64,000 nt of DNA from Adineta vaga (lineage: Eukaryota > Animalia > Rotifera): assembly GCA_021613535.1 (NCBI GenBank), contig CP075492.1, positions 8,197,653 through 8,261,652 on the forward strand, written 5' to 3'. Shown piece by piece: positions 6,155 to 63,085 of the stretch. Both the position numbers and the translations under genes were made by a program. Within the stretch, counting starts at the first letter, position 1; every line of letters starts with the position of its first letter. Under the pieces are notes generated by a model. It worked only from the letters and a program-made list of their open reading frames with translations, searched no databases and was not told the origin of the DNA.

Positions 6155-10766
<4,612 letters not shown>

Positions 10767-34255: not shown

Positions 34256-37200
34256 TTATTCGTGTTCGACAACTTGGTAATTGTTTGAAGCACTACGTGA
34301 TGTACGAGCATTTCGATTACCAGCTGAATTTAAACCACCTAAAAGACCTTGACCGAATCCCATAAGATTGATTGGTGTATTACCATCGGTGACAAGCATA
34401 GATTGAAGACCGAGTGCTTGTAAAAGTTTGACTTGTGTATCAGGACCTGATGTAGCAATTGCTTGAATTGTTGATGCTCCAATTGATTCAACTTGTAATT
34501 TGAATTTATCTGTTTCAATTCGTGACATTTCAGATTTTTTAGTAATTTCTAATTCATCTCGTTCACGAACAAATTTAATTTCAGCTTCACGTGCTAATTT
34601 CAAACGTGATAATTCAGCTTCAGCTTCAATTCGAGTTGCTTCAGCTTTAAGACGAGCTATTGAAAAGAAAATAATAATAATAAGCAATAGAATTGATAAA
34701 AATCTTGATTCATTACCTTGTTCAACGGCAGCTTCTCCTTCAATTCGAGCAGATTCAGCTCGACTTTGAGCTTCAGCTTTGGCTTGACCAGTTGATTCAA
34801 CAGCAGCTGATAGTGCTTGTAATTCAAGAAGTTGTTTACGAACATCTTCAGCTTCAGCTTCATCTTTGATACGTTGTCGTTCTAATAAACCTTTTGCTTC
34901 TTGTTCTCGTCGTGAAGCTTCATGTTTAGCTGCAGCTTCTTGTGAATTGGTTGTAATCTAAAATTAAATCAAATCATCTTCCTTTCAGGAAACTATTTGT
35001 TTTGATAAACATACTTCAATGGCTAATTGAACACTCTTTTGAAGTGCATCACGTGTTCGTTGATCAACAGGTTCAACGCTTTGAATATCGATGGATGTAA
35101 TGACGAGATTGTTTTGTGGAAAAACAAATTGTTCTCGTGGTCGTTTTTCAGCATCAAGACCAAAAACAGCTGCACGAATGATTTCTGCTGAGCTCTTATG
35201 AAAATCATCAAATTGTGTGCCAGCCACAATACCACGAACTCGTGAAGCAATGGCCTTAGCTGCATCACCAACAAAATCAGGAACTGAGAAAAGTTTAGCA
35301 GCTTCTTTTTCATCACATCCAGCATTAACTGCAAAATGCCAATCTAAAAAAAGTATACGAAAATCAAAACTATGAATTGATTTTAGTGAATAAACTTACT
35401 GTAGGAAAGTTGAAGAGAGAGACGAGCATGATCAGCTGTTTCGATAACAATAACATCAGTAAAGAAATCGGGACCGAGAAGTAAACAAAGTGTTTGAATC
35501 TGATTGGGTTTTTTTGGTACAGTGCCACTCAACGAAAGTAATGTGAATTGTTCATCAGGGCCAAGCATAACAAGTTCAGGACCAAAAATAATACGTGCTT
35601 TTTTAGCTTTATAATCATAAATTTGTACACATGCATTGTGTGGTAACGATAAGTAACTAATTTTGATTTATCACGTTTGCTGGTTTTTGAACCTGATGCT
35701 TGTGATGTAGTTGTGTTTTGTTGAGATTTATCTGATCCTTGATTACGTGTGGGAACATTACGTTCAGCTAATGGATCACGTGATAATAAGTCTTCGACTT
35801 GTTTTGGTAATTCTTTTTGCCAAAGTTCTTCGTCTTGTGTGAGCATATAAGTTTCACCAACAACAGCTCGTACACGACCAGTTTTGATATCACGAACATA
35901 GATACCTTCATTTTCATCTAATGGAAGTGCTTTACGACGAGTGACAACTTCTACTTGTGTTGGAGGAATATATTCACTAAAAAATAAACAATATGCATAT
36001 GTTTTTTTCTCTTCTTCGTCATAAAATCTATTTCTCTTACGTTGGACCACGAATCATCCATCGATCACCAGGATTTCGTGCTGTGCCAGCTTGTTGATCA
36101 TCGAATGTTTCGATACATTTGAGAATTACACCTTCATCTTCGCCTAAGATATACACATCTTGAATACCATTCTCAAGTTTTTCACCAGGTTGAAGAAAGA
36201 ATGATTTTTCACCGACAACAAGTTTCTAAAAGGAACAAAAACAAAACGATTTATTATTGCGATATGAATAAAATTGAAGAATTATACTTTTCTTCCTAAT
36301 TGTGGTTTTCCATCAGCAACTGGATCGAGAATGACACAGTATTGACGTGAATTAAGAGTAATAACATCAACAACTGCAACTAATTGTTCGTAAACACTAA
36401 GAATATGTGTTTCTGTATCTATATATGTGACAAGCCATTCTTCACCATTCATGCGGTTTTTACCAAAATCATCAACGAAAGTTTTTAAGGCACGAATATG
36501 AAGAGCTTTCTTGTCAGTTAAAACATGAGCATTATCGACTGAAACTACACTTTCCTAAACATTTCAAATGATAAAAATAGTTTATACAGAAAAGAACAAG
36601 AATTATCATCCTATCTTACATAGGCAAGTGGTAAATAAGCACCAGTCTTTTTTACCAACCATTCTTCACCAGTAACACGTCGTTGACCAGCTCGATCAAT
36701 GATTTCTTTTTTGGCACAAAGTCGAATGGCTTGATTAGAACCGATCACAGTAGCGCGAATTTGTTCTTCTACACTGACTTCTTTACGTGGGATATATGTA
36801 GCTGGTCCTTCGAATAACCATTCATCACCAGCTCGACGTTGTTCTTTAGTTGTTTCATCGTCAAAATCAAGAACAGCTTTTAAACGTAATGCTGAATTTG
36901 CTGGAACTACTTTTAGAGGAGTTACTGGCTACAAAAACAAAACACATTATATTTTGTCTGCAATAAGTAGGTCGATTTTGTCTATACCTGACGAAGAACT
37001 TCTCCTGGATAGAGTGGAAATGGTGCTTGATCAGCTCGTGCAAGACGAATATCCAAATCAGCATGGATCAATTTAGCTTGACCATTTTTATCAAATACAA
37101 CTTCGCCGGCCTCATTGCGTACAACTGGTGATTCAACAACACAGTAATGACGTGGTCTAAATAAATTTTTCAATGTTATTTTCTTTGTTTTTTCATTTTT

Positions 37201-44554: not shown

Positions 44555-47500
44555 ATGGCAAGATTTGATCATCTCACTTTCTGGTGTTTTTTGTTGATTA
44601 TTGATGGAGCAGTTGGTAAGTATCTTTGAAAGATTGTGTTGTCTTCATTGTCAAAATGAGATAGATGTTGCTGATAATAGTCATAGTTTATTTCGAGAGA
44701 TTTGTACTGAAGAATTCTCATGAGAGACAAATATGAGGAGAGAAATTGATCAGTTAGAAAAGAGTGATATGAGTAATTTGTTTCGAGTGAAAACTCTGTC
44801 ATTTTCTTTTTCTCCAGCTATCTCGTACAATCAACCAAAATTTTGTCCGAATGCATCATGGAATGCTACGGCCTTAACATTTGCAACAAATACAATTGTT
44901 GGCTCAACTCCTTATGGTATTTTTGTCAACTCCAACAATACCGTTTATGTAGCAAATCGCGAATCCAGTCGAGTTCATGTGTGGTTAGAAGGAAGTACAA
45001 CATCTATTCGAAATCTTTCGAGTGGTTTGAATCTTCCATATAGTGTGTTTGTCACTGATAATGGTGATATTTTTGTTGATAATGGTCAAACAAATAATAG
45101 AGTTGATCGATGGCAAACGAATTCTACTGACAGCATTCCAGCGATGTATACAGTGGAACATGTTATGATCTCTTCGTTGATATGAATAATAATCTTTACT
45201 GTTCCATGAAAGGTGACCATCAAGTTCTCAGTAATTCACTGACTAGTCGTTTAAATCTTTGGAGCATTGTAGCAGGCACCGGCACTGCTGGAGCAACAGC
45301 AATCACTATTAATAGTCCTTATGGAATCTTTGTCGATACAAATCTGAATTTATATCTTGCGGATTCAGGAAATCACCGAATTCAGTTGTATGCATATGGT
45401 CAACTGACTGGAACAGCTGTAGCAGGTGCTTCAGCTGCAGGAACTATTACACTCAGTATGCCAACTGATGTAGTACTTGATGCTGATGGTTATCTTTTTA
45501 TTGTTGACAGTGGAAACCACCGAATTGTTGGTTCTGGACCGTATGGGTTTCGTTGTATTGCAGCATGTACCGGAGCAGGTGCAACAGCCGTTAAATTAAA
45601 CAATCCAATCAGTTTCAGTTTCGATACTTATGGAAACATATTTATCACTGATCGAGATAACAATCGAGTTCAAAAATTTCTTATATCAACAAATGTTTGT
45701 AGTAAGTACAATTATTTCTCTGCAACATACTGTTCAGACTTGATTGAGACTTTGTTTATCAGAATAGAACGATTTGTATATTCCAAATGAGACTTGCTTA
45801 GATAGTTCATCAGTTAGATCTGTCTTTATCAGCGATCTTAATATGACAATTACAGGCAAGTTTATTTATTGTAGATGGAACGTCAACTACAACAACTGCT
45901 AGTGGTATGTCAATCACACTCTTGTTCTCATTTCGATATTGATAAACAATTGTTTTTATCGTTTTTAGTAACAGCATCATCGAGCATCATTCCAACAAGT
46001 ACATCTTCTGTGCCAAGTTCTTATTCAAATGGTAATCTGATTGTTTAGTGTACTTTTTCGTACAGGTCTTTTGAACTATAATTCTAAGGGTGCAAATATC
46101 AATAGTGAATCATAAATAGGCTGTTGGAAAGGTCAGTGAGAATGATTGATGGAAATCGATCAAGGAAAAAAAACAAGTTGAGAAGAGTATCAGAGACAAT
46201 CATACTTTTGAATAGTTGATCAATGCATAGATCTCACAAATCATATGATACATGCGAGATTACGAATAATAAGACTACCATTTCAGTTGACATGATAGAT
46301 CATAGTTTGTAAGGAAGCTTATGACAAACACTGATACTATACGATCTATTCTACTATTAGAGATGACAAGGACAAAAAGATTGATATTGCGAGTTTCTCA
46401 TCAGATTCACTACTCATTTCGTCGTCGAAAGAGACAACATAAATCATACACAATCATGTATTTTGCTATTTCCTCTTTTGTTGATTTCGATTATTGATAA
46501 AAGAACGATGATATGCATCATGATGATGTAGCTTTCGTCGCAACAGGACTTATATGAGTAACTTTGCGGTAGAAGAATTTCACAGTTGTCAAACAACTAA
46601 CGATGAAAACCAAATATAATGTGATTTTGTTATAGTTATTTCATACAATCAACCAAAATTTAGTCCATATGCAATATGGAGTGGAAATGCAATTACATTC
46701 GCTACGAGTACAACAGTGGGCGCCGAACCCTTTGGTATTTTTGTCGATAAAAACAATACTGTCTACGTTGCAAATAGAGGTGATAACAAGATTCAAATCT
46801 GGCTCGAAGGAAGTACAACACCTAGTCGTACTATAACAACTGATGTGGGCTATACATATAGTATTTTTGCTACAGTAACAGGTGATATTTATATTGATAA
46901 TGGATATTCATATAAGCGTGTTGATAAATATACATCAAATGGAACAATACGAACATCAGTCATGTCTGTTAAATATATATGTTATGATATTTTTATTGAT
47001 GTCAGCAACAATCTTTATTGTTCATTGTATGATTATCATCAAGTTGCAATGACATCGTTAAATAACAATTCTACGATGTGGACTATCGCTGCGGGAACAT
47101 ACTGTTCTGGTTCAACTGCTAATAAGCTTTATTTGCCTCGTGGAATCTTCGTCGACACTTCTCTCAATCTGTATGTTGCTGATTGTGGCAATAATCGCGT
47201 TCAACTCTTTCAATCAGGACAATTAGTTGCAACTACAATAGCAGGTGCATCAGCCGCAGGAACCATTTCACTCAGTTGTCCTAGTGATGTGATGCTGGAT
47301 GGTGATGGATATTTGTTCATTTTGGATAGTAGTAATCATCGTATTGTTGGATCAGGACCGAATGGTTTTCGTTGTTTAGTTGGATGTACAGGCGCTGCTG
47401 GTAGCACATCAAGTGGTTTGTATTTGCCATCAACTATGAGTTTTGACAGCTATGGAAATATCTATGTCGCTGATCGAATTAATTATCGTATACAAAAGTT

Positions 47501-50500
47501 TATTCTACAAGCAAATACGACTTATCGTAAGTGTGATGTACTCAGTAATAGTATGATAGATAGTTGTGAATATATCGACTGTTCAATGAGCGATATTGAT
47601 GATGCGAATGACTGGTCGATTTTGATCTCACGAACGATTTCTTATAATTGAGTCTTTGTTGAAAACTATGTTTAAACATTGATGACATGACATGAAGGTA
47701 GTGATTTTTCTTCTCATTTAGTTTTATTTGTTTCATTCTAGCTTTTTCTTTCAATCAGCCGAAGTTTTGTCCATCCGCCACTTGGTATACTGATGGTGTT
47801 ACTTTTGCAGACACTCGAATACTTAATACTTACGTTTTTGGAGTCTTCGTTGATGTTAATAATACTGTTTATATACCTAGCTGGCTAAATGATCAATCAT
47901 ATGTATGGAGAGAAGGAAGTCTTTTTCCTGACAGAAATTTGACTGGTGGGATGGATGGATCATTGAGTATTTTCGCAACACTTTCCGGTGATATTTATCT
48001 TGATAATGGTCTCAGTTATGGTCGAGTAGACAAATGGAGTCCAAGTTCCACGAGTGGTATATCGGCTATGACAATTACCGCACAATGTTATGATCTGTTT
48101 GTCGATACAACTAACACTCTCTACTGTTCAATGACTGGCAGTCATCGAGTTGCAAAGAAATGGTTGTCTAATAATGACACAGCTAATACAATAGCAGCTG
48201 GTACAGGTGGTACTAGTTCAGCTGCAAGCGATCTTTACTATCCTTGTGGAATTTATGTTGACTATCTGTTTAATTTATATGTTGGAGATTGTGGTAATGA
48301 TCGAATTCAAATGTTTCCTTTGGGACAAATGAATGCTATTACCATAGCTGGTAATGGTGCACCAGGTACCTTTACATTTGACTGTCCAAATGATATTGCA
48401 TTTGATGGTAATGGATATTTATTTGTAACTGATAACTACAATAATCGACTCATTGGATCAGGTCCATATGGATTTCGATGTTTGTTTGGTTGTACAAAAG
48501 TTGCAGGTTCATCATCTAGTCAACTGAATAGTCCACGAGAATTCAGTTTCGATAGTTATGGAAATATCTTTGTTGCTGATCAAGTCAATTATCGAGTTCA
48601 AAAGTTTCTCTTAGCAAGCAATTCATGTAGTGAGTGATGTTTTTTATTCGTTTTTTGATGCAGATATTTTATTGTAATGGAAATTGATGTATTTGTTCAT
48701 CTAGATATTTCATACAATCAACCAAACTTTTGTTCCGATGCTTCATGGTTTGCCAATGCATCAACATTTGCAGCGAGTACTACTATTGGTTCATTACCTT
48801 ATGGTATCTTCATTGATGGAATCAATACTGTTTATGTTGCAAGTCAATCGAATAACATTGTTTTAATATGGTCACAGTATGATAGTACACCAACAAGAAA
48901 TAACTCTGGTAATTTGAATCGTCCATACAGTACTTTTGTTTCATTGGCTGGTGATGTTTATGTTGATAATGGATATGCAAATGGTCGAGTAGATAAGTTT
49001 TCATTTAATTCATCAATTGTAACGACTGTAATGAAGGTGAATGGAAGTTGTTATGGTTTATTTGTTGATAGTAATAATTCTTTGTATTGTTCGCTTCGTG
49101 ATATTCATCAAGTGGTACAAGTTTCACTGAATAATGGTACAACTATTCCATGGGTGATATTAGGAAATGGAAGTGCAGGATCATCATCGAACATGCTTAG
49201 TTTTCCTCAAGGAATCTATGTGGATATCAATATGCAGTTGTATGTTGCAGACTGTGGAAATGATCGAATTCAGCGTATGTCAACAATAGGACAAATGAGT
49301 GCGGAGACTGTTGTTGGCAATGGTTCATCATCCGGAGATATGACTTTGCGTTGTCCTAGTGGAGTTGTGATGGATAAAAGCGGTTATTTATTTATTGTGG
49401 ATAGTTATAATCATCGAATCATTGGATCAGGGCCTTATGGATTTCGATGTATTGTTGGTTGCAATGGTATTAGTGGTTCAAGTGCAAGTCAATTGTCATT
49501 TCCACAAAGTATGGCATTTGATAGTTACGGGAATATATATGTTACTGATCGAAATAATAGTCGAATTCAAATGTTTTCTGCTCAGAAAACGAATTGTAGT
49601 AAGTAATTGTTGTGAGGAAGAAGTAGTAGTGAGAATATCATAGTTGTTGAAAGAGAGATAATAAGTAATATTGAGCAACTTGTTCTGTGTTAGAGTGAAG
49701 AAATACCTGTCTAAACTTAATTATTTGCAGGCTCACCGACGACGATTCAAACGAGTATGATGCCTTTTACATCTGGCGTGCCAACAACAGTAGCTACTGG
49801 AACGAATAATATGCAAGAAACGAGTTTGATGACAAGTGCAACACAATCAAGTACCTCAACTAGCACGTCTACCACCACGTCCAGTACATCCACGAGCACG
49901 TCCACTACGACGTCTTCCACCACTTCTACCACCACGTCCAGTACATCCACTTCAACGTCCACCAGTACTTCTACCAGTACTTCTACCACCACGTCCAGTA
50001 CATCCACTTCAACGTCCACTAGTACTTCTACCACCATGTCCAGTACATCCACTTCAACGTCCACTAGTACTTCTACCACCACGTCCAGTACATCCACTTC
50101 AACGTCCACTAGTACTTCTACCAGTACTTCTACCAGTACTTCTACTACCACGTCCAGTACATCCACTTCAACGTCCACCAGTACTTCTACCAGTACTTCT
50201 ACTACCACGTCCAGTACATCCACTTCAACGTCCACCAGTACTTCTACCAGTACTTCTACTACCACGTCCAGTACATCCACTTCAACATCCACCAGTACTT
50301 CTACCAGTACTTCTACTACCACGTCCAGTACGTCCACTTCAACGTCCACGAGCACGTCCACGAGCACGTCCACTACGACGTCTTCCACCACGTCCAGTAC
50401 GTCCACCACCTCGTCTAGCAGTTTTATCACCGCATTCACCTCAATGTCCACCACAACATCTACTACATCCATTACGTCTACCGGTATGTTAATCACTTTC

Positions 50501-53500
50501 ATTTATCTTGAAATAGTTGTTCACTGTGTCTCTCTCTCTGAAAATATCTATATATTCTTTTTAGATGACCCAATGTCAACCACAACATCAGTAACAACAA
50601 CAGAAGAATTCAAAGGTAACTATATCTGACATTATTATATTACACTAGCAAAACATAAACTATGACTGTATGTGTTTGTTATTTGAATATTAGTTTGTTA
50701 TTCACCAACGATTACACTTATTCCTGGTGGATCATCTTTGACATCACCACTACAATATCGACGAAATCAAGATTTTTCCATCAGTTCAACAATTCAGTTT
50801 CGTTGTAATGCATCACTTGCAACTCTGATGCAATGGTCAGTGAAGAATTGTACTTCGACTTCATGTCTCTATCGAATTGGATTGAGTGACAAGATCCGTA
50901 CAACGTTGAGTGAATTCTATGTTCCATCAAGAACTTTTGCTTATGGAATGTATGAACTGACTTTAACTGTAACAATGAAACAGTTTCCAAGTGCAAAATC
51001 ATCTTCTTCAGTTCATGTCATGATAACTCCATCAGGAATTACAGCAAATCCTGTTCCATTGGGAACATCGATGATCACACGTGGTAAAGAACAAGATCTC
51101 GAACTTGATCCAGGATCGTATTCAGTTGATCCTGATGAAGATTCATTCGATGCAAGTGTAAGTAACAGTCATCTTTTGATCATGCATAGAAATCTATCGT
51201 CATAGATTAATATTTTTATACTGAAATGAATCTTAGTAGATAATGATGATCATTTGTAAGTCAGTCATTGATAAGAGCAGATTAGTTCTTGGCAATGTTC
51301 AGTTATTCGTGTAGATAAGAATTGATTGTTGTTTATTCGAATTTGTAGGAGTATTTATTGCATGAAATGATGTTTTATTTTGGTTTAGAAATGGAAATAT
51401 GACTATTATTGTCGATGGTATGGTTCATATAATTTTCCAAATAGTCAAGGACGATTGTTAACAATTGAAAATTCGAAAAGTGATGCATTGAATCCATCAT
51501 GCTTGTCGAATCGATCAGGTAGGAATAGTGAATAGAGATTGATGATAATATCCATCTATTTTCATTCTATTGAAATAAAGATAATGGAACAGGTTTAATC
51601 TTTGGTAATTTGACTTCTTCACCAAAATCATCGTTAACAATTGTGTCTGGTACTCTTGAATCGAATCAAATGTATCAATTCATGGTTTATATGGAAAATC
51701 GCAAGAATGCTTCGATTCAAGCCACAGGCTTTGTTATTGTGACAATCGAAGATACCCTCCCAAAATTGGTTGTTATTGGGTAAAGTCATTACACTGATTA
51801 AGTGTTAGATATATGTGATGATCTGTTTTCGTGTACTTGTAGCTGTGTGATATCAACATTATGTTCACCAAATCTTGAATTTCAACTAGTCAATCCAACA
51901 ACACAAGTTGCATTGTTTGCTTTTTGTGTTGGAGTTTGTGAAAATCTTGTCGATATTCATTGGAATATTTATAAAGGTGATAGTAATTCATCTTCGAATT
52001 CTACTCAATGGACTTTGTTCGATCAAATGATTACATATGAGAATATTTGGTTTTTTGGTAAAGATGTTGTTGTTGTTTTGTGTGAATGAAGATGAGAATG
52101 CGTTTGTTTTTGTAGGAAGCAATACAAGTAATTTTACAGCATCATATCGTTTATTTATTGATAATCCAAGTATTCGATTATGGCGATTCGAAGTTGTCTA
52201 TCAATTTGCGAATGAATCAAGTACAAGTGCATTGAATTTTGTTATGAATCAATCGCCTTCGAATGGTTCATGTACGATGAATCCAAAGAATGGAACAACA
52301 ACAAGTTCATTTACTGTTTCATGTCCCAATTGGTATGATGAAGATGGAGTCAAAGATTATTCATTATATGGTATGTAGAGAAGTTTGTGAATATGATCAA
52401 TGTATGTATGTATAAAATGATGATTGTAGTATGGACAAGTGATATATCAAAGAAAGTAATGATTGCATTTTCATCTGTTTCTCAATTTCAAGTTCGATTA
52501 CCAGCTGGAGATGAACAAACATCATCATTCCATATGATTATTTATGTTCGAGATCTTGTTGATTGTGTGACAGAAGTGAATATGTCATCTGTTCATGTGA
52601 TTGTTGATAGTGTTAGCATGAATGATTTGATGAGTAATGTACAAATGAGTTCATCGGATGCAGTATTGTCAAATAATCCAATGGTACAATTACTTTCAAG
52701 TGGAAATCAGAATGTTGTTGGACAAGTTCTTACATCGCTTTCACAACAACTCAATCAGATGGAAAGTGAAAGTAGTGAAAAAGCAATATCAAGTAAATCT
52801 CATTAAATATATATATATTAGGATGCGATGATTAGAGATGCAAACAATGTTCATCACTTGCTTTTTGTTTGTTCGTTTAGATGGAGTACCAGCTGCAAGT
52901 GTATCCATATCATCATTGGGAAGCTCAAATTCAGGAGGCAACGAAGTAAGTAAATGTCAAAGTAGATATGTTTTGATTTGATGATTTCTGTGTATTTGAA
53001 TAGTCTGTGACATCATCATCATCATCAGTGAATGCATCTGCATTAGCTGAATATAGTAAAGAAGTGAATTCTCAAGCAAATATGAGAGATTATGTGATAT
53101 TATATGTAACAAATCTTGCAATCACAACATCGAATAGTATTAAACTTCAAGCGTCGACATTAGCACAAATGACTCAATCAACAAATCAGTTGACAAGATC
53201 AGCTTTGGTAAGAAGATTTGTAAAAATGAAAGGAAAGAATGTGGCATATATGATTTTAGACAGTTGCATCTAATAGATGTTATGATTTAGCTTTGGCATT
53301 GTATTCGATGGCTCAAAAGATCCCGTATGAAGATGTGGAAGTGGCAGCAAATCAACTAATTCAATGTGCTTCGAACATCTTGACGGTAGTAGAGATATTT
53401 TGATAGTTGAGAAGTACATATCTTTATGCACTATTCATAATTCGATTAGTTCGTTGTGTATAAAGGAAAAGCGAAAGTGTTTCTTTTCACTTGATTTAAA

Positions 53501-56500
53501 TGACGATAATATATGATGAATTTGTGATCGTTTTAGAGTGTCAATGGACCATTACAAGAACGAACACTTTCACTTGATTTGGATATGTCACGAGCCAATG
53601 CAATCTCAACTGATTATGATACTGACATTGAATCGGAATGGTCAAGTATAAGTAAGATTATTTGCATTTATCATCATGGATTGTTTCATTTTGTCTCCAT
53701 TTCAAAATGCAGGTTCTAGCGATAGTACAGATAGTAGTTCAATTGAAGAAAGACGAAATCTATATTATCAAAAGAAATTAGCAAATGAAATTCAAGTTCA
53801 ATCAACACAAATCATTTCATTCGTCACATCTTCATTAAAGATTCATTTGAATGTTGGTCAAAATTTACTCATCAATACATCACAAACATTTATGTCATTA
53901 GAAACAATATCGATCGAATCTTTATCAAATAAAACGATTAAACAAGTTGGATCTGCCTCATTTTATCTTCCATCTCAGTTCACATTGAATACAACAGATC
54001 ATCATAGTTCAGTTTCACTTCGAGTAAGTTCTTCTTTCTTTCTTTTCGTTTTTTATGTGCGATGATAATTGATGTTCTGTTGTTGTTATTGTGCTTAGTC
54101 CAAAATGGATCCACTTGCTGTGAATGGTAATTTTTCTAATACAAATCTTTCGAGATCAGTTGCATTAACATTTGTGGATAATAATGGAAATGAAATTCCA
54201 TTTTCAACAAATCGCAGTACACCAATCAAAGTTATTATACCTCGTGATCCTAGTATCATTATTTCATCAATGTATCTTCAAAATGTAACTACATCAATGA
54301 ATAAAACAACATCTAATCATGTATTATTTCATTTACATTATATTAATATCACGAGTTCACTTTCGATTTCCGTTCATTTGGAAATTCGATCATTGAATGA
54401 AAGTTTAGGTTATTTATTTATTTATAAATTTGATCAAACACCACAATTGAATAGTTCAATCAAGTCAATTGATGGATGGACAATATTTTGTCCTTCGAGT
54501 AATGAAGTTATTGATATGAATTTGATGTGTTGATGTATTGTTTTGTTTTGTAGTGTTAAATGATGAAAAGATGTATAAATATTATATTGATAATGAAGAA
54601 ACATCAGATCATCAATCATTGATATTTGGTATACGTGAATTGAGTATTTTGGAAATGAATGAATATTGTTGGAATAATAAAACATTAGATAATAGTAGTG
54701 TACCAGTGACAGACATAGAATGTAATTTTACATCGAATTATGAATTACGTATTTATACATCAGGTTGTTATTATCTTGATGAGAATAATAATTGGAAATC
54801 AGAAGGATTAGTTGTAAGTATGATGATGATGATGATGATGATGATGTCATAGTGTTGTTATTGATTTGAAGAGAATCTCAGTTATTTATTTTTTGTATAA
54901 AATAATAAATAGGTTGGACCATTGACGAATCATTATGAAACTGAATGTCTATCGAATCATTTGACAACATTTGCTGGTGGATTTATTGTTTTACCTGCAC
55001 CAATCAATTGGAGTTATGTATTTGCTAATGCTGATTTTATGAAAAATAAGACTGTGTATTTGACAATGATTTGTACATCGGTACTTTATATTATTCTAAT
55101 GATTTATGGTCGTTTCAAAGACAAGAAAGATATTGAAAAAGTAAATATGTAAAGTAGTTGAAATGAAAATGAATGTTTTCGTTTTGTTTTGTAGTTGGGA
55201 GTGACACCATTGGGTGATAATCGTAGATCTGATCAATATTATTATCAGATTCTTGTTTTTACTGGTCAACGAACGAATGCTGGTACAGAATCGAAAGTAA
55301 ATGATTGCCAGAGAAAAGGAATGGATGAGGGAAAAGATTGTTTTTTGTCTTTTTTGATTAGGTTCATTTTGTGTTGGCAGGTGATGAAGATCAAACAGAG
55401 ATTCGTGCATTAGCTGATCCACATCGAAAGATCTTTCAACGTGGTGGTATTGATGCTTTTGTTATGGCAGTACCAAAGTAAGTTCGAATACAAATGAATG
55501 TGAAGAAGAGAATTAATTGATGAATGATTATGTGATGAAATGATATTTAGATCATTGGGATTGTTGAATTATATTCGAATTTGGCATGATAATTCAGGTG
55601 CAGGATCATCAGCATCATGGTATTTGAAATATATCATTGTTCGTGATCTTGAAACAATGGAAAAGTTTTATTTTATTGCTCAAAGATGGTTGGCAGTTGA
55701 ACAAGATGATGGACGAGTAAGTTGAAAAAGAAGATAGTATTGATAGAATGAACGAGAAAATGTGATTATTGTTTTGTTTTATTTTATTTGAATATAGATC
55801 GAACGAATATTGCCAGTAGCTGGTGAAATGGAAAAACAAGAGTTTTCATATGTATTATCGAAGAAAGCATATCATAGTGTATCTGATGGTCATTTGTGGT
55901 TTTCGATCTTTTCTCGTCCACCATCGAATCGATTTACTCGTGTACAACGATGTACTTGCTGTTTTGTTTTATTTTTTGTATCGATGTTACTCAATATCAT
56001 GTATTATGATTTATCAAATGAAGCCAAATCAGCAAATCAAACACAAACGAATGGTTTAGTCATCGGTCCTCTTTACATCACACCACAACAGGTAAGATGA
56101 TTAGTGAAGTGAGTGAAAGAGACGGAGAGCAACATTCAGTTGGAAATCAATGCTTGTGGATTTGATGAAATGTGATAGTTGTTCATATTGTTATTTGTTA
56201 ATGTGATTAGATTGGAATTGGAGTCATGGTTGAACTGTTAACACTTATTCCAAGTCTTTTTATTGTTCAACTCTTTCGTCGCATTCGATCTCGACAACAA
56301 ACTTCACCATTACGTCAAGCATTACATAAAATCAACGCATCTCGAGCATTGTTCGTATATATATATATATATATATATTATATTTATCGTCTGTGAGAGT
56401 TGTTCACTTTTGTTTTTCATTGTAGTTCGGAAAGTGTTGAATCAATGCGAAGAAAGAAACTACCAAGAACATTGCCTTGGTGGTGTTTGTTTATTGCCTA

Positions 56501-58919
56501 TGGTCTATCATTTGCGATCATTGCCATTTCGATTCTTTTCATCATTGCACGAGGCATTGAATTTGGTGATGTCAAAACTCAACAATGGTTAACATCTGTT
56601 CTTACTGGATTCTTCTCATCGATTCTTCTTACTCAACCAATCAAAGTACATAGCCTATCTCTCTCATATTTCATTTGCATTCGTTCATACATATATGTTT
56701 GATTTGATGTAGATCTTGTGTTTAGCAGTATTTTTTGCACTGTTTTGTCGAAATTCGACAAATGACAAAGAAGCAAGTGAATACATTGATGATGATCGAA
56801 TTGAATTCGATGATACTGGTGATAATGATCTGCATGGAAGTGAAGTATGTTATTAGGGATGAATGAGAGATGTTGTTCTTGATGTTCTGTTTAGAATCAT
56901 GGTATATTTAATCCACAAACGATGAAAAGTGCCAAACGACTGAATGAAAATGAGATCAGAGATGCACGTGAACAACGTCTAAAAGAAATGCAAATGTGGT
57001 CAATAATTCGTGAATTTCTCATCTATGTCATCTTTGCAACATTGATCTTTGTGATCACATATGGAAATCGTGAAGCAAATAGTTTTCATCAAGTGAATCA
57101 TCTTCGTAGTTATTTGTTCAATACAAGACAAAGTACTGTTGATTATACAAAGGTTTGTTGATGATGACTTTTTCTTTTCTTATTCTGTAATGATTTGAAA
57201 ATGTTAATTTTAGATTTTGACAATTGAACAATATTGGAATTGGTTAGAGAATAGTTTTGTTGATAATCTTCGTGCACAACAATGGTACAATGGTGATGCA
57301 GCACGATATTTGAATGGATATTTGAATGATAAATCGAATCGATTGATTGGTTGGGCAATGATGAGACAACTTCGTATCAAAACAGAATTATGTGATGATC
57401 AACGTCTTATGATGAGATGTGAACATAGTTATAGTATATTTAATGAAGATAAACGATCATTTGAACCAGGATGGATAAATGAAACTACAATGGTGATGAT
57501 GAGTGGAGGAAATTATAGTTCATCAATAATGAAAGCATTTCGATATCGTTCAAGTGATGAGTTAGATACGTATGCTTATGTTGGTGAACATGAAACATAT
57601 CGAGGTGGTGGTTATGTTTATGAATTTCGTGGAAGTTTATCTGATATGAAAAAGAATCTTTCTCAACTTCATCAATTAGAATGGATTGATAGTAAGACAA
57701 GAGCTGTATTTATTCAAATGACTTTATATAATCCAAATGTGAAATTATTAACATCAGTGACATTATTAACTGAATTCTTATTAACAGGTGGAGTATTTCC
57801 ATCAGCTCGTTTTGATCCAATTAATTTCTATAGTAAGTATTTTCTCATTATTGTTTGTAATTGAAAAGAGAAGAGAATGCAATTTGAATATTTGTATTTA
57901 GCATTTACATCAGTATTACAAATTGTTTGTACAATATTGTATATGTTATTTATAATTTATTTCATGAAAGTTGAGATTCAATCAGTAATTCAATTGAAAA
58001 CTCGATATTTTCGTCAATTTTGGTCAATAATTCAAATAGGAATCATTGTTTCTTCGTGGACAAGTGTTGGAGTTTATATTTGGCGTTTTCGAGAAAGTGC
58101 TCGTGTCAGTAATTTATTTGAAAAGACAAATGGTTATGTTTATATAAATTTACAACTTGCAGCATATGTAAATGATATTTTAACATATTTACTTGGTTAT
58201 TGTTGTTTTTTTGGAATGATAAAATTTGTTCATTTCTTTCGTTTTAATCATCGTGTATCATTATTTACTGAAACACTTCGAATAGCTGCGAATGAATTAA
58301 TTCAATTCTTTCTAATGTTTTCAATTGTATATATGTCATATTTGACTTTATTTTATCTTTTATTTGTTTCAAAACTTTCGTCCTGTTCAAGTTTGTTAAG
58401 TACAGCACAAATGTTATTTGAAATTACATTGATGAAATTTGATGCGACTGAATTGATTGAAGCCGGTGCATTTCTTGGTCCATTTTGTTTTACATTATTT
58501 ATTTTTGTGGTTGTATTTGTTTGTTTGAGTATGTTTCTTTCGATTATCAATGATAGTTTTCGTCGAGCCAAAGAGACAAGAATTGAAGATCAAATAATTT
58601 TATCATTTATGTGGAAGAAGTTTATACAATATACAGGTAAAAGTGTTTATTGAAGAGAGAGAGAAACGATTGATTGTTTTAGGTTTGCGAAAGCCCAGTC
58701 CATCGGAAGTTTATGCTGAACGAGATCGTCGAATGCGTTCATTATTTTTTGATCCAATCGAACATTTTCCTAGGAAAATCGATGAATTGTTAGCAGCAAT
58801 TGACAGGGTATGTAAAGCTGATTGTTTTATAAAGAATATATTGTTTTGTTTATAGATTTATATGGATCAGAGAGCGGAATTTTCCAGACTGAGAAGTGCA
58901 GGTGTTTGAAGAATTGCAT
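44555..58919 (+). CDS. Polycystin-1/REJ-family receptor-channel gene with a novel ectodomain: signal peptide, 4 NHL beta-propeller modules, S/T mucin repeat, REJ, GPS/GAIN, TM1, PLAT/LH2, polycystin domain, TRPP-type 6TM channel; >30 exons
   Basis: Signal exon 44555-44617 (MARFDHLTFWCFLLIIDGAV). All exon joins between the NHL modules, S/T linker and mucin exon are phase 1 and keep a single reading frame. GPS motif CLSNHLTTFAGG. PLAT blocks YQILVFTGQRTNAGTESK and SWYLKYIIVRDLET...YFIAQRWLAVEQDDGR. Channel region in ORFs 57217..57864 and 57877..58653 with a pore-like FLGPFCFTLFIFVVVF. Stop at 58917-58919. Confidence 0.8.
44818..45700 (+). other. NHL-propeller module 1 (single exon, phase 1-1)
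   Basis: Six NHL-like blades with repeated YGIFVD..N.VYVAD..N.RIQ and DGYLFIVDSGNHRIVGSG motifs. Acceptor CCAG at 44817 and donor GTAAGT at 45701. Confidence 0.75.
46646..47526 (+). other. NHL-propeller module 2 (single exon, phase 1-1)
   Basis: ISYNQPKFSP...FGIFVDKNNTVYVANRGDNKIQIW...DGYLFILDSSNHRIVGSGPNGFRC. Acceptor TTATAG at 46645 and donor GTAAGT at 47527. Confidence 0.75.
47742..48629 (+). other. NHL-propeller module 3 (single exon, phase 1-1)
   Basis: FSFNQPKFCP...CGNDRIQMF...NGYLFVTDNYNNRLIGSGPYGFRC. Acceptor CTAG at 47741 and donor GTGAGT at 48630. Confidence 0.75.
48704..49598 (+). other. NHL-propeller module 4 (single exon, phase 1-1)
   Basis: ISYNQPNFCS...CGNDRIQRM...SGYLFIVDSYNHRIIGSGPYGFRC. 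Acceptor CTAG at 48703 and donor GTAAGT at 49599. Confidence 0.75.
49731..50484 (+). repeat. Mucin-like Ser/Thr-rich exon containing a ~45-nt tandem repeat (about 10 copies, 49850-50460); coding, in frame with the NHL modules
   Basis: Near-identical repeats TCCACTAGTACTTCTACCACCACGTCCAGTACATCCACTTCAACG translate to TSTSTSTTTSSTS. Alternative-frame ORFs 49836..50492 (+) and 49747..50502 (-) are repeat artefacts. Confidence 0.8.
50694..51157 (+). other. REJ (receptor-for-egg-jelly) domain exon of the polycystin-1-like gene
   Basis: ORF 50738..51205 with a REJ-like CxxxxC pattern. Region continues in exons 51381-51520, 51588-51780, 51830-52085 and 52105-52375 (CRW..C, WTLFDQ, N-glycosylation-rich). 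Confidence 0.6.
54817..54845. repeat. (GAT)n microsatellite in an intron of the PKD-like gene
   Basis: Run gatgatgatgatgatgatgatgatg directly after a GTAAGT donor at 54811. It produces the spurious poly-Met end of ORF 54538..54852. Confidence 0.75.
54913..55140 (+). other. GPS autoproteolysis motif (HL^T) and first transmembrane helix
   Basis: TNHYETECLSNHLTTFAGGFIVLPAPINWSYVF, then hydrophobic VYLTMICTSVLYIILMIYG, then basic RFKDKKDIEK. The preceding exon supplies CNFTSNYELRIYTSGCYYLDENNNWKSEGL, which is GAIN subdomain B. Confidence 0.7.
55188..55720 (+). other. PLAT/LH2 domain (3 exons)
   Basis: YQILVFTGQRTNAGTESK / GDEDQTEIRAL...RGGIDAFVMAVPK / LNYIRIWHDNSGAGSSASWYLKYIIVRDLETMEKFYFIAQRWLAVEQDDGR match the polycystin-1 PLAT domain. 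Confidence 0.7.
56355..56380. repeat. (TA)n microsatellite in an intron of the PKD-like gene
   Basis: Run atatatatatatatatatattatattta seen directly. Confidence 0.75.
57217..58653 (+). other. Polycystin (TRPP) extracellular domain plus 6TM cation-channel region
   Basis: ORF 57217..57864 (IEQYWNWLENSFVDNLRAQQWYNGD...) is polycystin-domain-like. ORF 57877..58653 has six hydrophobic helices and a pore-loop-like ITLMKFDATELIEAGAFLGPFCFTLF. Confidence 0.7.
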
Positions 58920-59512
58920 TTGATGATTACCGGTGAAAAAGAACTGAAATTTTTCATATGAAATGTTTTCCAAATATTTTAAATACATATGTTTCGAGGA
59001 ACTCTCGATTAATATAAGTGTTGCTTTGCTTTAATCTAAACTTTGACGGACGTTTTAAATTAAAATGAAGTTTTGGGACACAGTAAAATATATTATCCTT
59101 GTTTCATATTATCCTTTATTTTCGGTTTTGAAAGTATGTTAAATTCGATTGAGAATAAAGATATTATACATTTCGGATAGTAACACTAGGTGAGAAACTT
59201 TGCACTTTAAAATGAATTGTTAAGTTAAGACAAGACAAGGTAAGAAAAAATTTGATTTTCCTTGAAATAGTTTTCTCTTCCTATAAAGATGTGCATATCT
59301 AAGTTATATGATTCAAAGTGCATAAATGCATTAAATTGTTCTTTTTATTCTTTCCTCCATCAAACATTCAAAATCCATATATTACCATGATTCATTGTTA
59401 TCCTCATAATAACTATTCTAATATTCTCAATCAACATAGTCATATACATTTATTTTAAGAGTACGACTAGAATCATTGAAAAACGCCGATAAAGCTAAAA
59501 ACAAGTCAAATA

Positions 59513-62500: not shown

Positions 62501-63085
62501 AATGAAGTAGAGAAAAAAATTCGTACAAAGGTTAATAATGCATTATCAAATGCAAATGGTCAATCATCATCATCTAGTAGTCGAAAACAGACAAATCCAG
62601 CAAATCAAACGAATTTTGCAATTTTGATCACTTCACCAACAGCACATATGATTAATATGAATTCAAATTCTTTAAAGCAACGTAAATCGAATGGTAAAGG
62701 AAGGTCACCTAATCATCCATCGTCATCCGATGAAATTGATGATCGTTCGCAATTAAAAAGAGATATGGCTAATGACGATGATGATTCATCAGTTTCTCAC
62801 TTAATCTCCTATCTCGCTACGTGAGTATATTAATTTATTGAAATGATGAAAAACTTAATTTTTTTCTTTTTCAGAAAAGAAGCCGCTGGTGTTGTATCGG
62901 TTTCATCCAATTCTCATGATCGAGAAGCAACTGTTTTAAATGTATTTCCTCCGTGTTTACTTACTAAAAAACTTCTTCGAGTTATTTGTCCATCAATTAG
63001 TTTTTCTAATGGTCCACGTACACCACCATCACGTCCAACAATGACAAATGATGAACATCTCGTTGTTATTATCAATCGTGATTAA
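59513..63085 (+). CDS. RBM15/Spenito-like RNA-binding protein: 3 RRMs, RS/SP-rich linkers, C-terminal SPOC domain; about 9 exons including one 855-nt intron (60690-61545)
   Basis: RRM1 VAFVNFTNCEDARRARHAKTG. RRM2 RTLFVGNLERDVRESKLREVFGRYGTIEE plus AYAFIQYENMDMAYEARRAMDG. RRM3 CLWIGNIPMDMKRRDLEQALTRYGQLKSF. SPOC blocks YSVQFILKTHAYDARMHFLAGN, VTQRLRLDENRFNEVEKKI and AAGVVSV...ATVLNVFPPC. Arg/Ser and Ser/Pro dipeptide-rich linkers. Confidence 0.75.

What the first reader, a model, noticed from the sequence alone, without database searches (positions are those of the whole stretch)
44818..49598. Exon-level modular duplication: four ~0.9-kb phase-1 symmetric exons each encode a whole NHL propeller
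Each module begins right after an AG acceptor with (A/I)ISYNQP(K/N)F(C/S). Each ends with N.CS followed by GTAAGT or GTGAGT, one nucleotide into a codon. Any number of modules can therefore be spliced together in frame. The modules are diverged paralogs, not recent copies. The 0.9-kb first intron (45701-46645) contains two candidate phase-1 micro-exons encoding S/T linkers (about 45870-45899 NGTSTTTTAS and 45968-46030 VTASSSIIPTSTSSVPSSYSN). This is the kind of structure that allows alternative module usage or copy-number evolution of a ligand-binding head.
Basis: seen in the sequence. Interest (0 to 1): 0.55.

Follow-up and report, generated by a model that had tools for sequence, protein, structure and literature searches.

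The report
Rotifer polycystin-like receptor, four propeller exons
This is the front end of one large bdelloid-rotifer gene for a polycystin-1-like membrane receptor, whose outer "head" is four old, diverged copies of an NHL beta-propeller, each encoded by a single exon that can be joined in frame; it is a clean but ordinary case of domain duplication by exon, and the first copy carries a one-base deletion in this assembly.

Summary
Window 44818-49598 holds four ~0.89-kb paralogous exons, 45-56% identical in amino acids. Each encodes a complete six-bladed NHL propeller (Pfam NHL; AlphaFold pLDDT 94; fold match to PknD, TRIM71 and Pizza6).

M2, M3 and M4 are open and are 891, 888 and 894 nt, with phase 1 at both ends. 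Both proposed micro-exons are supported by homology to annotated exons in Adineta steineri.

Corrections:
- M1 is 884 nt. It lacks the T of a conserved TGT codon at 45152/45153, which gives a stop at 45183.
- M2 ends NTTY, not N.CS.
- M3 starts FSFNQP.
- The M2 acceptor is at 46635/46636, not 46645.

The modules are the head of a longer gene. With the T restored, exon 1 through the first REJ exon splice into 5022 nt with no stop. The order is signal peptide, four NHL propellers, a Ser/Thr mucin stalk, then REJ, PLAT, Polycystin_dom and PKD_channel, ending near 58.9 kb.

The A. steineri locus L005 is collinear, and its modules correspond position by position. The four-module layout is therefore ancient and stable, not a recent copy-number change. 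The same one-propeller phase 1-1 exon also occurs in rotifer GPCR and EGF fusion genes.

Alternative module use remains untested. Interest is modest.

The parts
44555..44615 (+). Exon 1. ATG plus signal peptide MARFDHLTFWCFLLIIDGAV, ending one nucleotide into a codon (phase 1). Donor is GTAAGT.
   Evidence: Read from the sequence. A. steineri homologs begin with similar hydrophobic leaders directly before ISYNQP.
44818..45701 (+). Module M1, NHL propeller exon of 884 nt. It carries a 1-nt deletion (the T of TGT) between 45152 and 45153, which creates a premature TGA at 45183-45185. Restoring the T gives 885 nt with phase 1-1.
   Evidence: The DNA alignment to L005 and L007 pinpoints the deletion. 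dN/dS is 0.29 before and 0.32 after the shift. The 181 codons after the shift are open, with P about 1e-6 by chance.
45875..45904 (+). Micro-exon u1, 30 nt, phase 1-1. It encodes (N)GTSTTTTAS, including an N-x-T glycosylation sequon.
   Evidence: AG/GT boundaries. A. steineri proteins have an NxTTT... linker at the same place.
45969..46031 (+). Micro-exon u2, 63 nt, phase 1-1. It encodes VTASSSIIPTSTSSVPSSYSN.
   Evidence: It is the clearest conserved island of intron 1 against A. steineri L005, at 72% identity over 100 nt. It is homologous to the annotated exon ATLSTNIIQATTPSISSSYSN.
46636..47526 (+). Module M2, NHL propeller exon, 891 nt, phase 1-1. It lacks both the N-terminal and the C-terminal cysteine (KFS...NTTY).
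   Evidence: The A. steineri proteins listed also lack both terminal cysteines in M2; the exact TTY ending recurs in about a quarter of them.
47742..48629 (+). Module M3, NHL propeller exon, 888 nt, phase 1-1. It starts FSFNQPKFC. Donor is GTGAGT.
48705..49598 (+). Module M4, NHL propeller exon, 894 nt, phase 1-1. The donor GTAAGTAA contains an in-frame stop if it is not spliced.
   Evidence: AlphaFold gives pLDDT 94 and pTM 0.92. Foldseek matches six-bladed NHL propellers.
49731..50483 (+). Ser/Thr-rich mucin-like stalk exon, 753 nt, phase 1-1. It is built from about nine copies of a 57-nt tandem repeat.
50565..50615 (+). Exon of 51 nt, phase 1-1, encoding DDPMSTTTSVTTTEEFK.
50694..54820 (+). 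REJ-domain exons and the following juxtamembrane region. The first exon starts in phase 1 with no ATG.
   Evidence: Pfam REJ, E = 4e-14 and 4e-8. Collinear with L005. Homolog tiling shows no frame breaks.
54958..54966 (+). HLT tripeptide in ...ETECLSNHLTTFAGGF..., followed by a hydrophobic segment. This is a candidate GPS cleavage site followed by TM1.
   Evidence: Seen in an ORF translation. Pfam GPS did not score at E <= 0.01.
55540..55725 (+). PLAT/LH2 domain, C-terminal half seen in this ORF.
   Evidence: Pfam PLAT, E = 1.3e-8.
57217..58653 (+). Polycystin_dom plus the PKD_channel transmembrane region. The gene ends at about 58.85-58.9 kb.
   Evidence: Pfam E = 3e-38 and 2e-39. 63-71% identity to the best rotifer polycystin-like proteins. 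Homolog tiling.

Best explanation
The four modules are constitutive coding exons at the 5' end of one bdelloid-rotifer gene, about 44.55-58.9 kb on the + strand. The gene encodes a polycystin-1-like (PKD1L/PKDREJ-type) receptor.

The protein order is: signal peptide; NHL propeller 1; a short glycosylated S/T linker from two micro-exons; NHL propellers 2, 3 and 4; a 251-aa mucin-like stalk; REJ; a GPS-like site; TM1; PLAT; and a polycystin/PKD-channel transmembrane body.

Each propeller is a self-contained, probably disulfide-bonded, six-bladed domain encoded by one exon with phase 1 on both sides. This is the classic geometry of metazoan extracellular modules that spread by exon duplication and shuffling. 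The four copies arose by tandem exon duplication before the divergence from the Adineta steineri lineage, and each has since been kept in its position under purifying selection.

Inferred, not shown: the propellers form an extracellular ligand- or surface-binding head held away from the membrane by the mucin stalk, and they signal through the polycystin-type body, giving a chemo- or mechanosensory receptor.

In this assembly M1 has a single-base deletion. It is either very recent or an assembly error. If it is real, this haplotype makes a truncated product unless M1 is skipped.
For: Shown:
- Module boundaries, lengths and phases.
- Paralogy among the modules.
- Pfam NHL in all four modules.
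- A confident six-bladed propeller model for M4, with matches to PknD, TRIM71, Thin and Pizza6.
- REJ, PLAT, Polycystin_dom and PKD_channel downstream on the same strand.
- Exon 1 through the first REJ exon splice into 5022 nt with no stop once the missing T is restored.
- Every exon from the signal peptide to the first REJ exon is phase 1.
- The stalk exon and the REJ exon have no signal peptide of their own, and the 51-nt and REJ exons start without an ATG.
- In A. steineri L005, conserved coding sequence extends 31 codons upstream of the annotated REJ 'start' to a phase-1 acceptor.
- The 221-aa 'gene' annotated between the two L005 models is an out-of-frame reading of the S/T repeat.
- Window 44.8-58.8 kb is collinear with L005 at 71-77% nucleotide identity in exons.
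- Modules correspond by position: 60-69% identity on the diagonal against 45-55% off it.
- 34 A. steineri clusters keep the order 1-2-3-4.
- Several public gene models already fuse NHL with REJ or with PKD_channel: P0245, P0306, P0288, P0359 and P0298.
- dN/dS is 0.20-0.32 for every module.
- Cysteines are lost in pairs (C183/C216 in M1, C9/C297 in M2) and co-occur across 494 family modules with phi 0.72 and 0.51. This fits disulfide-bonded extracellular domains.
- The same phase 1-1 propeller exon occurs in GPCR-fused and EGF-fused rotifer genes.
Against: - No transcript evidence was available, so all splice junctions are inferred from sequence and homology.
- The A. steineri annotation models the NHL part and the REJ/PKD part as separate genes.
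- The M4 donor contains an in-frame stop, so a secreted four-propeller protein ending at M4 is formally possible.
- M1 is frameshifted in the window, so the locus as assembled cannot make the full protein.
- The GPS domain did not reach Pfam significance.
- Ligand and function are entirely inferred.
- Only M4 was modelled in three dimensions.
Confidence: 0.75

Rival explanations
1. There are two adjacent genes. One encodes a secreted four-propeller NHL protein that ends at the stop inside the unspliced M4 donor (...NCSK*). The other, immediately downstream, is an independent polycystin-like gene.
For: A. steineri gene models are split this way: P0241 plus a 2052-aa REJ-PLAT-PKD model, and P0242 plus a 2054-aa model. 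An in-frame TAA lies within the M4 donor GTAAGTAA.
Against: - The downstream models start at an internal ATG, with conserved coding sequence and a phase-1 acceptor upstream of it.
- The intervening 221-aa model is an out-of-frame artefact.
- The P0242 tail is a wrong-frame reading of the S/T repeat.
- The S/T exon, the 51-nt exon and the REJ exon have no signal peptide, yet REJ must be extracellular.
- All exons share phase 1 and splice into one open frame.
- Other public models fuse NHL with REJ or PKD_channel.
Confidence: 0.1
2. The symmetric exons are used as cassettes. Regulated skipping of whole propellers, micro-exons or both gives receptor isoforms with different heads. Skipping M1 would also rescue the frameshifted allele.
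For: All head exons are phase 1-1, so any subset stays in frame. Joining exon 1 directly to u1 gives an open frame. The A. steineri locus L007 holds an intact u2-like micro-exon (11204-11266, AG...GT) that model P0242 omits. Linker length varies from 9 to 43 aa among the models in which the linker is modelled.
Against: Homologous gene models contain all four propellers in series. Each module is conserved by position and under purifying selection. This is expected for constitutive exons, though it does not exclude occasional skipping. The omission of u2 may simply be an annotation miss. No transcript data were available.
Confidence: 0.12
3. The copy in this window is a young pseudogene, or a null allele, of the receptor family. 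The M1 deletion is real and truncates the protein after about 140 residues.
For: A 1-nt deletion sits outside any homopolymer, at a codon conserved as TGT in the two aligned A. steineri loci L005 and L007, and is followed by a stop. The family is very large, with 1564 hits at E <= 1e-10, so losing one copy could be tolerated.
Against: No other lesion was seen. The 181 codons after the shift are open, with P about 1e-6 by chance. M1 has dN/dS like the other modules. The rest of the gene tiles against homologs without frame breaks. A consensus or assembly indel error would look identical.
Confidence: 0.4

Closest known systems
Polycystin-1 family receptors (PKD1, PKD1L1-3, PKDREJ; sea-urchin suREJ/SpREJ; C. 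elegans LOV-1)
   Same: REJ domain, an HLT GPS-like site before a first transmembrane segment, PLAT after TM1, and a C-terminal Polycystin_dom plus PKD_channel. Family members are known to carry variable N-terminal adhesive modules; the sea-urchin REJ proteins are described as large multidomain PKD1-family members in PMC1934368. A mucin-like S/T-rich N-terminal region is known in LOV-1 (my own knowledge).
   Different: The N-terminal head is four NHL beta-propellers. No paper in the searched library mentions both polycystin-1 and NHL repeats. Known members use LRR, C-type lectin, PKD/Ig-like, EGF or mucin regions instead (my own knowledge). The GPS domain and the 11-TM topology were not verified here.
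Extracellular and other NHL six-bladed propellers: M. tuberculosis PknD sensor domain (1rwl/1rwi), teneurin NHL domain, TRIM71/TRIM2/Thin NHL domains
   Same: Pfam NHL repeats. Six-bladed fold with TM-score 0.68-0.76 (query-normalised) and 0.77-0.83 (target-normalised) to PknD, TRIM71, TRIM2 and Thin. Like PknD and teneurin, the domain is predicted to be extracellular on a membrane receptor.
   Different: Only 21-25% sequence identity to these natural NHL domains. The rotifer modules have their own N-terminal cap (I/F-S-Y/F-N-Q-P-x-F-C) and a characteristic cysteine pattern. Four propellers occur in tandem. TRIM-NHL domains are cytoplasmic RNA binders, so function cannot be transferred from them.
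Phase 1-1 symmetric 'module' exons of metazoan extracellular proteins (exon shuffling and tandem exon duplication, Patthy's phase-compatibility rule; from my own knowledge)
   Same: Exon boundaries coincide with domain boundaries. Phase is 1 on both sides. The same module is duplicated in tandem and is present in unrelated receptor genes: PKD-like, 7tm_1 GPCR and EGF-containing.
   Different: The module is unusually large, about 295 aa: a complete propeller in one exon rather than a 40-100-aa EGF, Ig or FN3-type unit.
Bdelloid rotifer NHL-repeat multigene family ('NHL repeat containing protein(-like)' of Adineta and Rotaria, including A. vaga B3G4G9)
   Same: The window modules are 60-69% identical to their positional counterparts in A. 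steineri proteins. Architecture, linker and splice phases are the same. An NHL family expansion in A. vaga is mentioned in PMC3846280.
   Different: The best hit shows only about 65% protein identity, so the source species or this gene is not in the annotated set. Public models are mostly split or truncated and do not show the full NHL-to-PKD gene.

Membership tests
NHL-repeat six-bladed beta-propeller (Pfam PF01436, clan CL0186) | NHL repeat profile matches above the curated threshold | tested here: met
   All four modules score 36.9-73 bits against a cut-off of 20.
NHL-repeat six-bladed beta-propeller (Pfam PF01436, clan CL0186) | Closed six-bladed propeller fold contained within the unit | tested here: met
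   The M4 AlphaFold model has pLDDT 94 and pTM 0.92, with about 24 strands. Foldseek gives E = 1e-17 to 1e-12 against Pizza6, PknD, Thin, TRIM71 and TRIM2. M1-M3 are inferred from 45-52% identity to M4.
Polycystin-1-like (PKD1/PKDREJ) receptors | REJ domain in the ectodomain | tested here: met
   Pfam REJ, E = 4.3e-14 and 4e-8, on ORFs at 50.7-52.4 kb.
Polycystin-1-like (PKD1/PKDREJ) receptors | GPS/GAIN autoproteolysis motif just before TM1 | tested here: inconclusive
   The sequence ...ETECLSNHLTTFAGGF... is followed by a hydrophobic stretch at 54.95-55.1 kb. There was no Pfam GPS hit at E <= 0.01.
Polycystin-1-like (PKD1/PKDREJ) receptors | PLAT/LH2 domain in the first cytoplasmic loop | tested here: met
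   Pfam PLAT, E = 1.3e-8, at about 55.55-55.72 kb. Its position after the putative TM1 is inferred from the order along the DNA.
Polycystin-1-like (PKD1/PKDREJ) receptors | C-terminal polycystin (TOP) domain plus PKD-channel-like 6TM region | tested here: met
   Polycystin_dom E = 3e-38 and PKD_channel E = 2e-39.
Polycystin-1-like (PKD1/PKDREJ) receptors | All domains on one polypeptide (one transcript), with 11-TM topology | not testable with these tools
   Only indirect support: an open spliced frame from exon 1 into REJ, no independent start for the REJ part, and fused public models. This needs cDNA. Transmembrane topology was not predicted.
Symmetric phase 1-1 domain exons (exon duplication/shuffling) | Exon boundaries coincide with domain boundaries | tested here: met
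   The HMM envelope 1-295 fills each exon. The AlphaFold model of the exon product is a complete domain.
Symmetric phase 1-1 domain exons (exon duplication/shuffling) | Same intron phase on both sides and length divisible by 3 | tested here: met
   Met for M2, M3 and M4 (891, 888 and 894 nt), for u1 and u2 (30 and 63 nt) and for the S/T and 51-nt exons. M1 fails as assembled (884 nt) because of a 1-nt deletion, while its orthologs are intact. Phases are conserved in A. steineri L001, L005 and L007.
Symmetric phase 1-1 domain exons (exon duplication/shuffling) | Same module exon found in unrelated gene contexts | tested here: met
   Phase 1-1 propeller exons occur in a 7tm_1 GPCR fusion (L008/P0350) and an EGF fusion (L009/P0301).
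Symmetric phase 1-1 domain exons (exon duplication/shuffling) | Splice junctions verified by transcripts | not testable with these tools
   No RNA data were available. The junctions rest on consensus splice sites, open frames and homology.
Mutually exclusive / cassette exon arrays (Dscam-type diversification) | Only one, or a variable subset, of the paralogous exons is included per mRNA | tested here: inconclusive
   Predicted homolog proteins carry all four modules in series, and the modules are positional orthologs. That argues against mutual exclusivity. These are gene predictions, not transcripts.

The most novel reading that the evidence does not exclude
The all-phase-1 head is a splicing toolkit. 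Bdelloids would regulate the inclusion of whole propeller exons and S/T micro-exons to make polycystin-like receptors with one to four propellers and variable linkers. In this haplotype the frameshifted M1 would be tolerated because exon 1 can splice directly to u1, u2 or M2. Combined with the very large family, this would give a combinatorial extracellular recognition repertoire in an asexual animal.
Probability: 0.1. Interest if true: 0.55.

Novelty: new member of a known kind. Interest (0 to 1): 0.3.

Why it matters
The locus is a tidy worked example of domain evolution by exon. A complete ~295-residue propeller sits in one phase 1-1 exon, is duplicated four times in tandem, and is reused in other receptor classes.

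More practically, the analysis indicates that public Adineta steineri annotations split one long gene into an 'NHL repeat protein' and a separate 'polycystin-like' protein. In one locus a spurious out-of-frame gene is annotated between them. If the fused model is right, bdelloid rotifers have an undescribed, expanded subfamily of polycystin-1-like receptors with propeller heads. These are candidates for environmental or surface sensing.

It does not open a long-standing question and would not surprise a specialist in exon shuffling or polycystin evolution.

Tried and rejected
- **Exact-sequence look-up of the M4 ORF** (window 48677-49606) in public assemblies found nothing on record, so neither the source organism nor an allelic copy could be retrieved.
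- **A small internal intron that bypasses the M1 frameshift.** Any GT...AG pair of plausible length would remove a conserved blade (YTCxxCYDLFVD...LYCS), so this was rejected from the sequence.
- **A degenerate fifth module or transposon remnant** in the long u2-to-M2 intron (46032-46635). tblastn gave no hit better than E = 0.3 even at E <= 50. Apart from the u1/u2 region the intron does not align to the A. steineri introns.
- **P0288 as a natural M1-less (M2-M3-M4-REJ) gene.** Its N-terminus looks like a poor model that reads through linker and intron sequence, so it is not usable as a precedent.
- **Full-length (>3000 aa) fused gene models** through the 50%-cluster library. Only fragments and partial fusions were returned, the longest being 1770 aa.
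- **Literature.** Searches for 'bdelloid' with 'NHL repeat', and for 'polycystin-1' with 'NHL repeat', found nothing relevant. A search for 'Adineta' with 'NHL' found one passing mention of NHL family expansion in A. vaga.
- **The sigma-70 promoter/terminator scan** was not used because the sequence is eukaryotic.
- **A script bug** produced a very large output for L003 and L004. Only the L001, L005 and L007 rows of that call are used.

Full report
**What the sequence is**

The window is AT-rich (28-37% GC in 2-kb windows) and has short GT-AG introns. Its proteins find their best matches in bdelloid rotifers such as Adineta steineri, Rotaria and A. vaga. The best protein identities are only 65-71%. 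The exact species or gene is therefore not in the annotated collections, and an exact look-up of the M4 ORF found nothing.

**Checking the observation**

I located every splice-site string exactly and measured the exons.

| Exon | Coordinates | Length (nt) | Note |
|---|---|---|---|
| Exon 1 | 44555-44615 | 61 | ATG plus signal peptide, donor GTAAGT |
| M1 | 44818-45701 | 884 | not a multiple of 3 |
| u1 | 45875-45904 | 30 | micro-exon |
| u2 | 45969-46031 | 63 | micro-exon |
| M2 | 46636-47526 | 891 | open |
| M3 | 47742-48629 | 888 | open |
| M4 | 48705-49598 | 894 | open |

- Each module follows a polypyrimidine-AG and is followed by GTAAGT or GTGAGT.
- In M2-M4 the exon begins with two bases that complete a codon and ends with one extra base. 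That is phase 1 on both sides, and the frames are open.
- The modules match one another with tblastn E-values of 1e-68 to 1e-108 and 45-56% amino-acid identity. The window holds no further copies.
- All four score above the Pfam NHL threshold.
- An AlphaFold model of M4, built with a 79-sequence alignment, is confident (pLDDT 94, pTM 0.92). It superposes on six-bladed NHL propellers: Pizza6 designs, the extracellular sensor domain of M. tuberculosis PknD, Drosophila Thin, TRIM71 and TRIM2. E-values are 1e-17 to 1e-12 and the target-normalised TM-score reaches 0.9.

'One exon = one whole propeller' is therefore confirmed.

**Corrections to the observation**

M1 is not symmetric as assembled. 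It is 884 nt long, and its frame changes after ...DSIPAMYT.

- Aligning the DNA to two A. steineri loci shows the cause. They read ATG TAT ACA TGT GCA/TCA CAA TG., while the window reads ATG TAT ACA -GT GGA ACA TGT.
- The T of a cysteine codon present in both aligned loci is missing between 45152 and 45153. A TGA follows at 45183.
- The deletion is not in a homopolymer.
- The 181 codons after the shift are free of stops in the shifted frame, with P about 1e-6 at this base composition.
- M1's dN/dS against its A. steineri counterpart is 0.29 before the shift and 0.32 after it. M2-M4 give 0.20-0.29.

The lesion is therefore either very recent or an assembly error. I could not decide between these without reads.

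Smaller corrections:
- M2 ends ...NTTY+C|GTAAGT rather than N.CS.
- M3 starts FSFNQPKFC.
- The 'S' of N.CS is only the donor read through.
- The M2 acceptor AG is at 46634-46635, not 46645.

**The micro-exons**

Both have AG/GT boundaries and phase 1-1, and there is independent support.

- In A. steineri protein P0241 the 32-residue linker between modules 1 and 2 is encoded by two micro-exons in the corresponding ~0.9-kb intron of locus L005. They encode STTTTAAPIT and ATLSTNIIQATTPSISSSYSN. The window's equivalents are (N)GTSTTTTAS and VTASSSIIPTSTSSVPSSYSN.
- At the DNA level the u2 region is the one strongly conserved island of intron 1 between the two species, at 72% over 100 nt. The u1 region aligns only weakly.
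- Across the 37 multi-module A. steineri proteins examined (P0241-P0277), nearly all have an N-x-T-T... linker between modules 1 and 2, and in roughly a third of them it ends ...SYSN(V/P). It is 9-43 residues long in all but three of them (0, 1 and 58 residues). Modules 2-3 and 3-4 are joined almost directly.
- The rest of the intron holds no module remnant.

**What the modules belong to**

Downstream on the same strand lie:
- a 753-nt Ser/Thr exon (49731-50483) built from about nine copies of a 57-nt repeat;
- a 51-nt exon (50565-50615);
- an exon starting at 50694 that opens the REJ domain.

All of these are phase 1. Further downstream Pfam finds REJ, PLAT, Polycystin_dom and PKD_channel. 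An ...ETECLSNHLTTF... GPS-like site precedes a hydrophobic segment.

Splicing exon 1, M1 with the T restored, u1, u2, M2, M3, M4, the S/T exon, the 51-nt exon and the first REJ exon gives 5022 nt with no stop codon. Homologs tile 50.7-54.8 and 56.0-58.9 kb with no frame breaks.

The finding is therefore the 5' third of a ~14-kb gene for a polycystin-1-like receptor with a four-propeller head on a mucin-like stalk.

**One gene or two?**

A. steineri annotations split the equivalent loci into an 'NHL repeat containing protein' and a ~2050-aa REJ-PLAT-PKD protein. Three observations show that split is an artefact, at least in L005 and L007:
- The REJ model starts at an internal ATG, although conserved coding sequence (CYAPTIILIPSQSSLTSAFQYKRSQDFSISS) runs 31 codons upstream to a phase-1 acceptor with no start codon.
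- A 221-aa 'gene' annotated between the two models is an out-of-frame (P/V/L/Q-rich) reading of the S/T repeat.
- The P0242 tail is the same kind of wrong-frame reading.

The M4 donor GTAAGTAA contains an in-frame stop, which explains why predictors end the NHL protein there. Other public models do fuse NHL with REJ (P0245, P0306, P0288, P0359) or with PKD_channel (P0298). I rate the single-gene model at about 0.75. Only cDNA can settle it.

**Evolutionary reading**

- Window 44.8-58.8 kb is collinear with A. steineri locus L005 at 71-77% nucleotide identity in exons.
- Each window module is closest to the module at the same position: 60-69% identity against 45-55% off the diagonal.
- Classifying every module of 120 homologs gives the order 1-2-3-4 in 34 clusters. 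Most of the shorter patterns (2-3-4, 3-4, 1-2-3, 1-2) come from proteins flagged as partial and are subsets of that order.
- Module-specific traits are shared between the species. M2 lacks both terminal cysteines in all the A. steineri proteins listed as well. In the window's own M1, the C183/C216 pair is missing.
- Across 494 family modules these cysteines co-occur, with phi 0.72 for C183/C216 and 0.51 for C9/C297. This pattern fits disulfide pairs in an extracellular domain.

The four-fold duplication thus predates the split from the A. steineri lineage and has been stable since. That is the opposite of ongoing copy-number evolution at this locus.

At the level of the whole rotifer family the module clearly has moved. 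Proteins with two or three modules exist, as do fusions to 7tm_1 GPCRs and EGF repeats. In two such genes (L008 and L009) each propeller is again one exon with phase 1 on both sides, as in the A. steineri PKD-linked loci. This is textbook exon duplication and shuffling of a phase 1-1 extracellular module. The only unusual feature is the size of the module.

**Function (inferred)**

By analogy with the extracellular NHL sensor of PknD and the ectodomain logic of polycystin-1 family receptors, the propellers would bind an extracellular ligand or surface. The glycosylated mucin stalk would project them from the membrane, and the REJ/GPS/11-TM body would transduce the signal. None of this was tested.

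**Alternative splicing**

The phase geometry allows any subset of head exons, and joining exon 1 to u1 is in frame. One hint exists: L007 holds an intact 63-nt u2-like exon (11204-11266) that model P0242 omits. That may be an annotation miss. I give regulated cassette use about 0.1.

**Novelty**

NHL family expansion in A. vaga has been noted in passing (PMC3846280). Multi-module NHL proteins from rotifers are in public databases, including A. vaga B3G4G9. I found no paper that links NHL repeats with polycystin-1-type receptors.

The window is a new member of an existing but uncharacterised rotifer family, and its exon logic is a known kind. Interest is modest, at about 0.3.

Noticed in passing
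L005 15342-16007 and 16711; L007 15218-15401: Public A. steineri annotation appears to split one NHL-mucin-REJ-PKD gene into two or three models. The 221-aa model in L005 is an out-of-frame reading of the S/T repeat. The REJ model starts at an internal ATG, 31 conserved codons downstream of a phase-1 acceptor.
   Followed up: yes
L007 11204-11266: An intact 63-nt u2-like micro-exon (ag|CA ACA ACT ATG ... TCA AAC G|gtaatg, encoding ATTMTSVIQATTTSTPVSFSN) lies in the M1-M2 intron but is absent from gene model P0242. It is either a candidate cassette exon or an annotation omission.
   Followed up: partly
window 49599-49606: The M4 donor GTAAGTAA carries an in-frame TAA (...N C S K *). Failure to splice would end the protein right after the fourth propeller. 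This probably explains why predictors terminate 'NHL proteins' at this point.
   Followed up: partly
window 49850-50400: A 57-nt tandem repeat of about nine copies (81-90% matches), with nested 12-, 21-, 24-, 33- and 45-nt periodicities, encodes the TSSTSTSTSTS... mucin-like stalk. Repeat number is likely to be variable.
   Followed up: no
window 54820-54846: A perfect (ATG)x9 microsatellite lies immediately after a GTAAGT donor, so it is intronic. In an ORF list it reads as a poly-Met tail.
   Followed up: partly
L001 55-3028 and 8226-13028; L003 12988-16070: In A. steineri, NHL/PKD-type genes cluster. In L001 a second four-module NHL gene starts about 5 kb downstream of a PKD-channel gene end. 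In L003 a 728-aa NHL gene lies on the opposite strand just after the PKD gene. The window itself holds only one such gene.
   Followed up: no
window 31870-32436 (+) and 35529-36050 (-): Two diverged ORFs with the same conserved stretch ([21 protein letters not shown]...G.TY.LT..EELW.K.LP), which looks major-vault-protein-like, lie in opposite orientation about 3 kb apart. This may be an inverted paralog pair. The identification is by eye only and was not checked against a profile.
   Followed up: no
window 7625-10766 (-), 18064-19960 (-), 23198-24379 (-), 26447-27631 (-), 59476-62824 (+): Neighbouring ORFs look like ordinary metazoan genes: an RNA polymerase II second-largest-subunit-like gene, an ACE-like peptidase, an intronless 393-aa 7TM receptor, a sulfite-oxidase-like gene, and an RRM-containing gene downstream of the receptor. 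These identifications are by eye only and were not checked with profiles.
   Followed up: no
one search hit list (P0009-P0120): Hundreds of ~300-aa 'proteins' from metagenome collections (JGI, ENA, Logan), some labelled YncE, YvrE or streptogramin lyase, are 55-68% identical to a single module. They are probably single rotifer propeller exons called as ORFs by prokaryotic gene finders, that is, eukaryotic contamination annotated as bacterial proteins.
   Followed up: no
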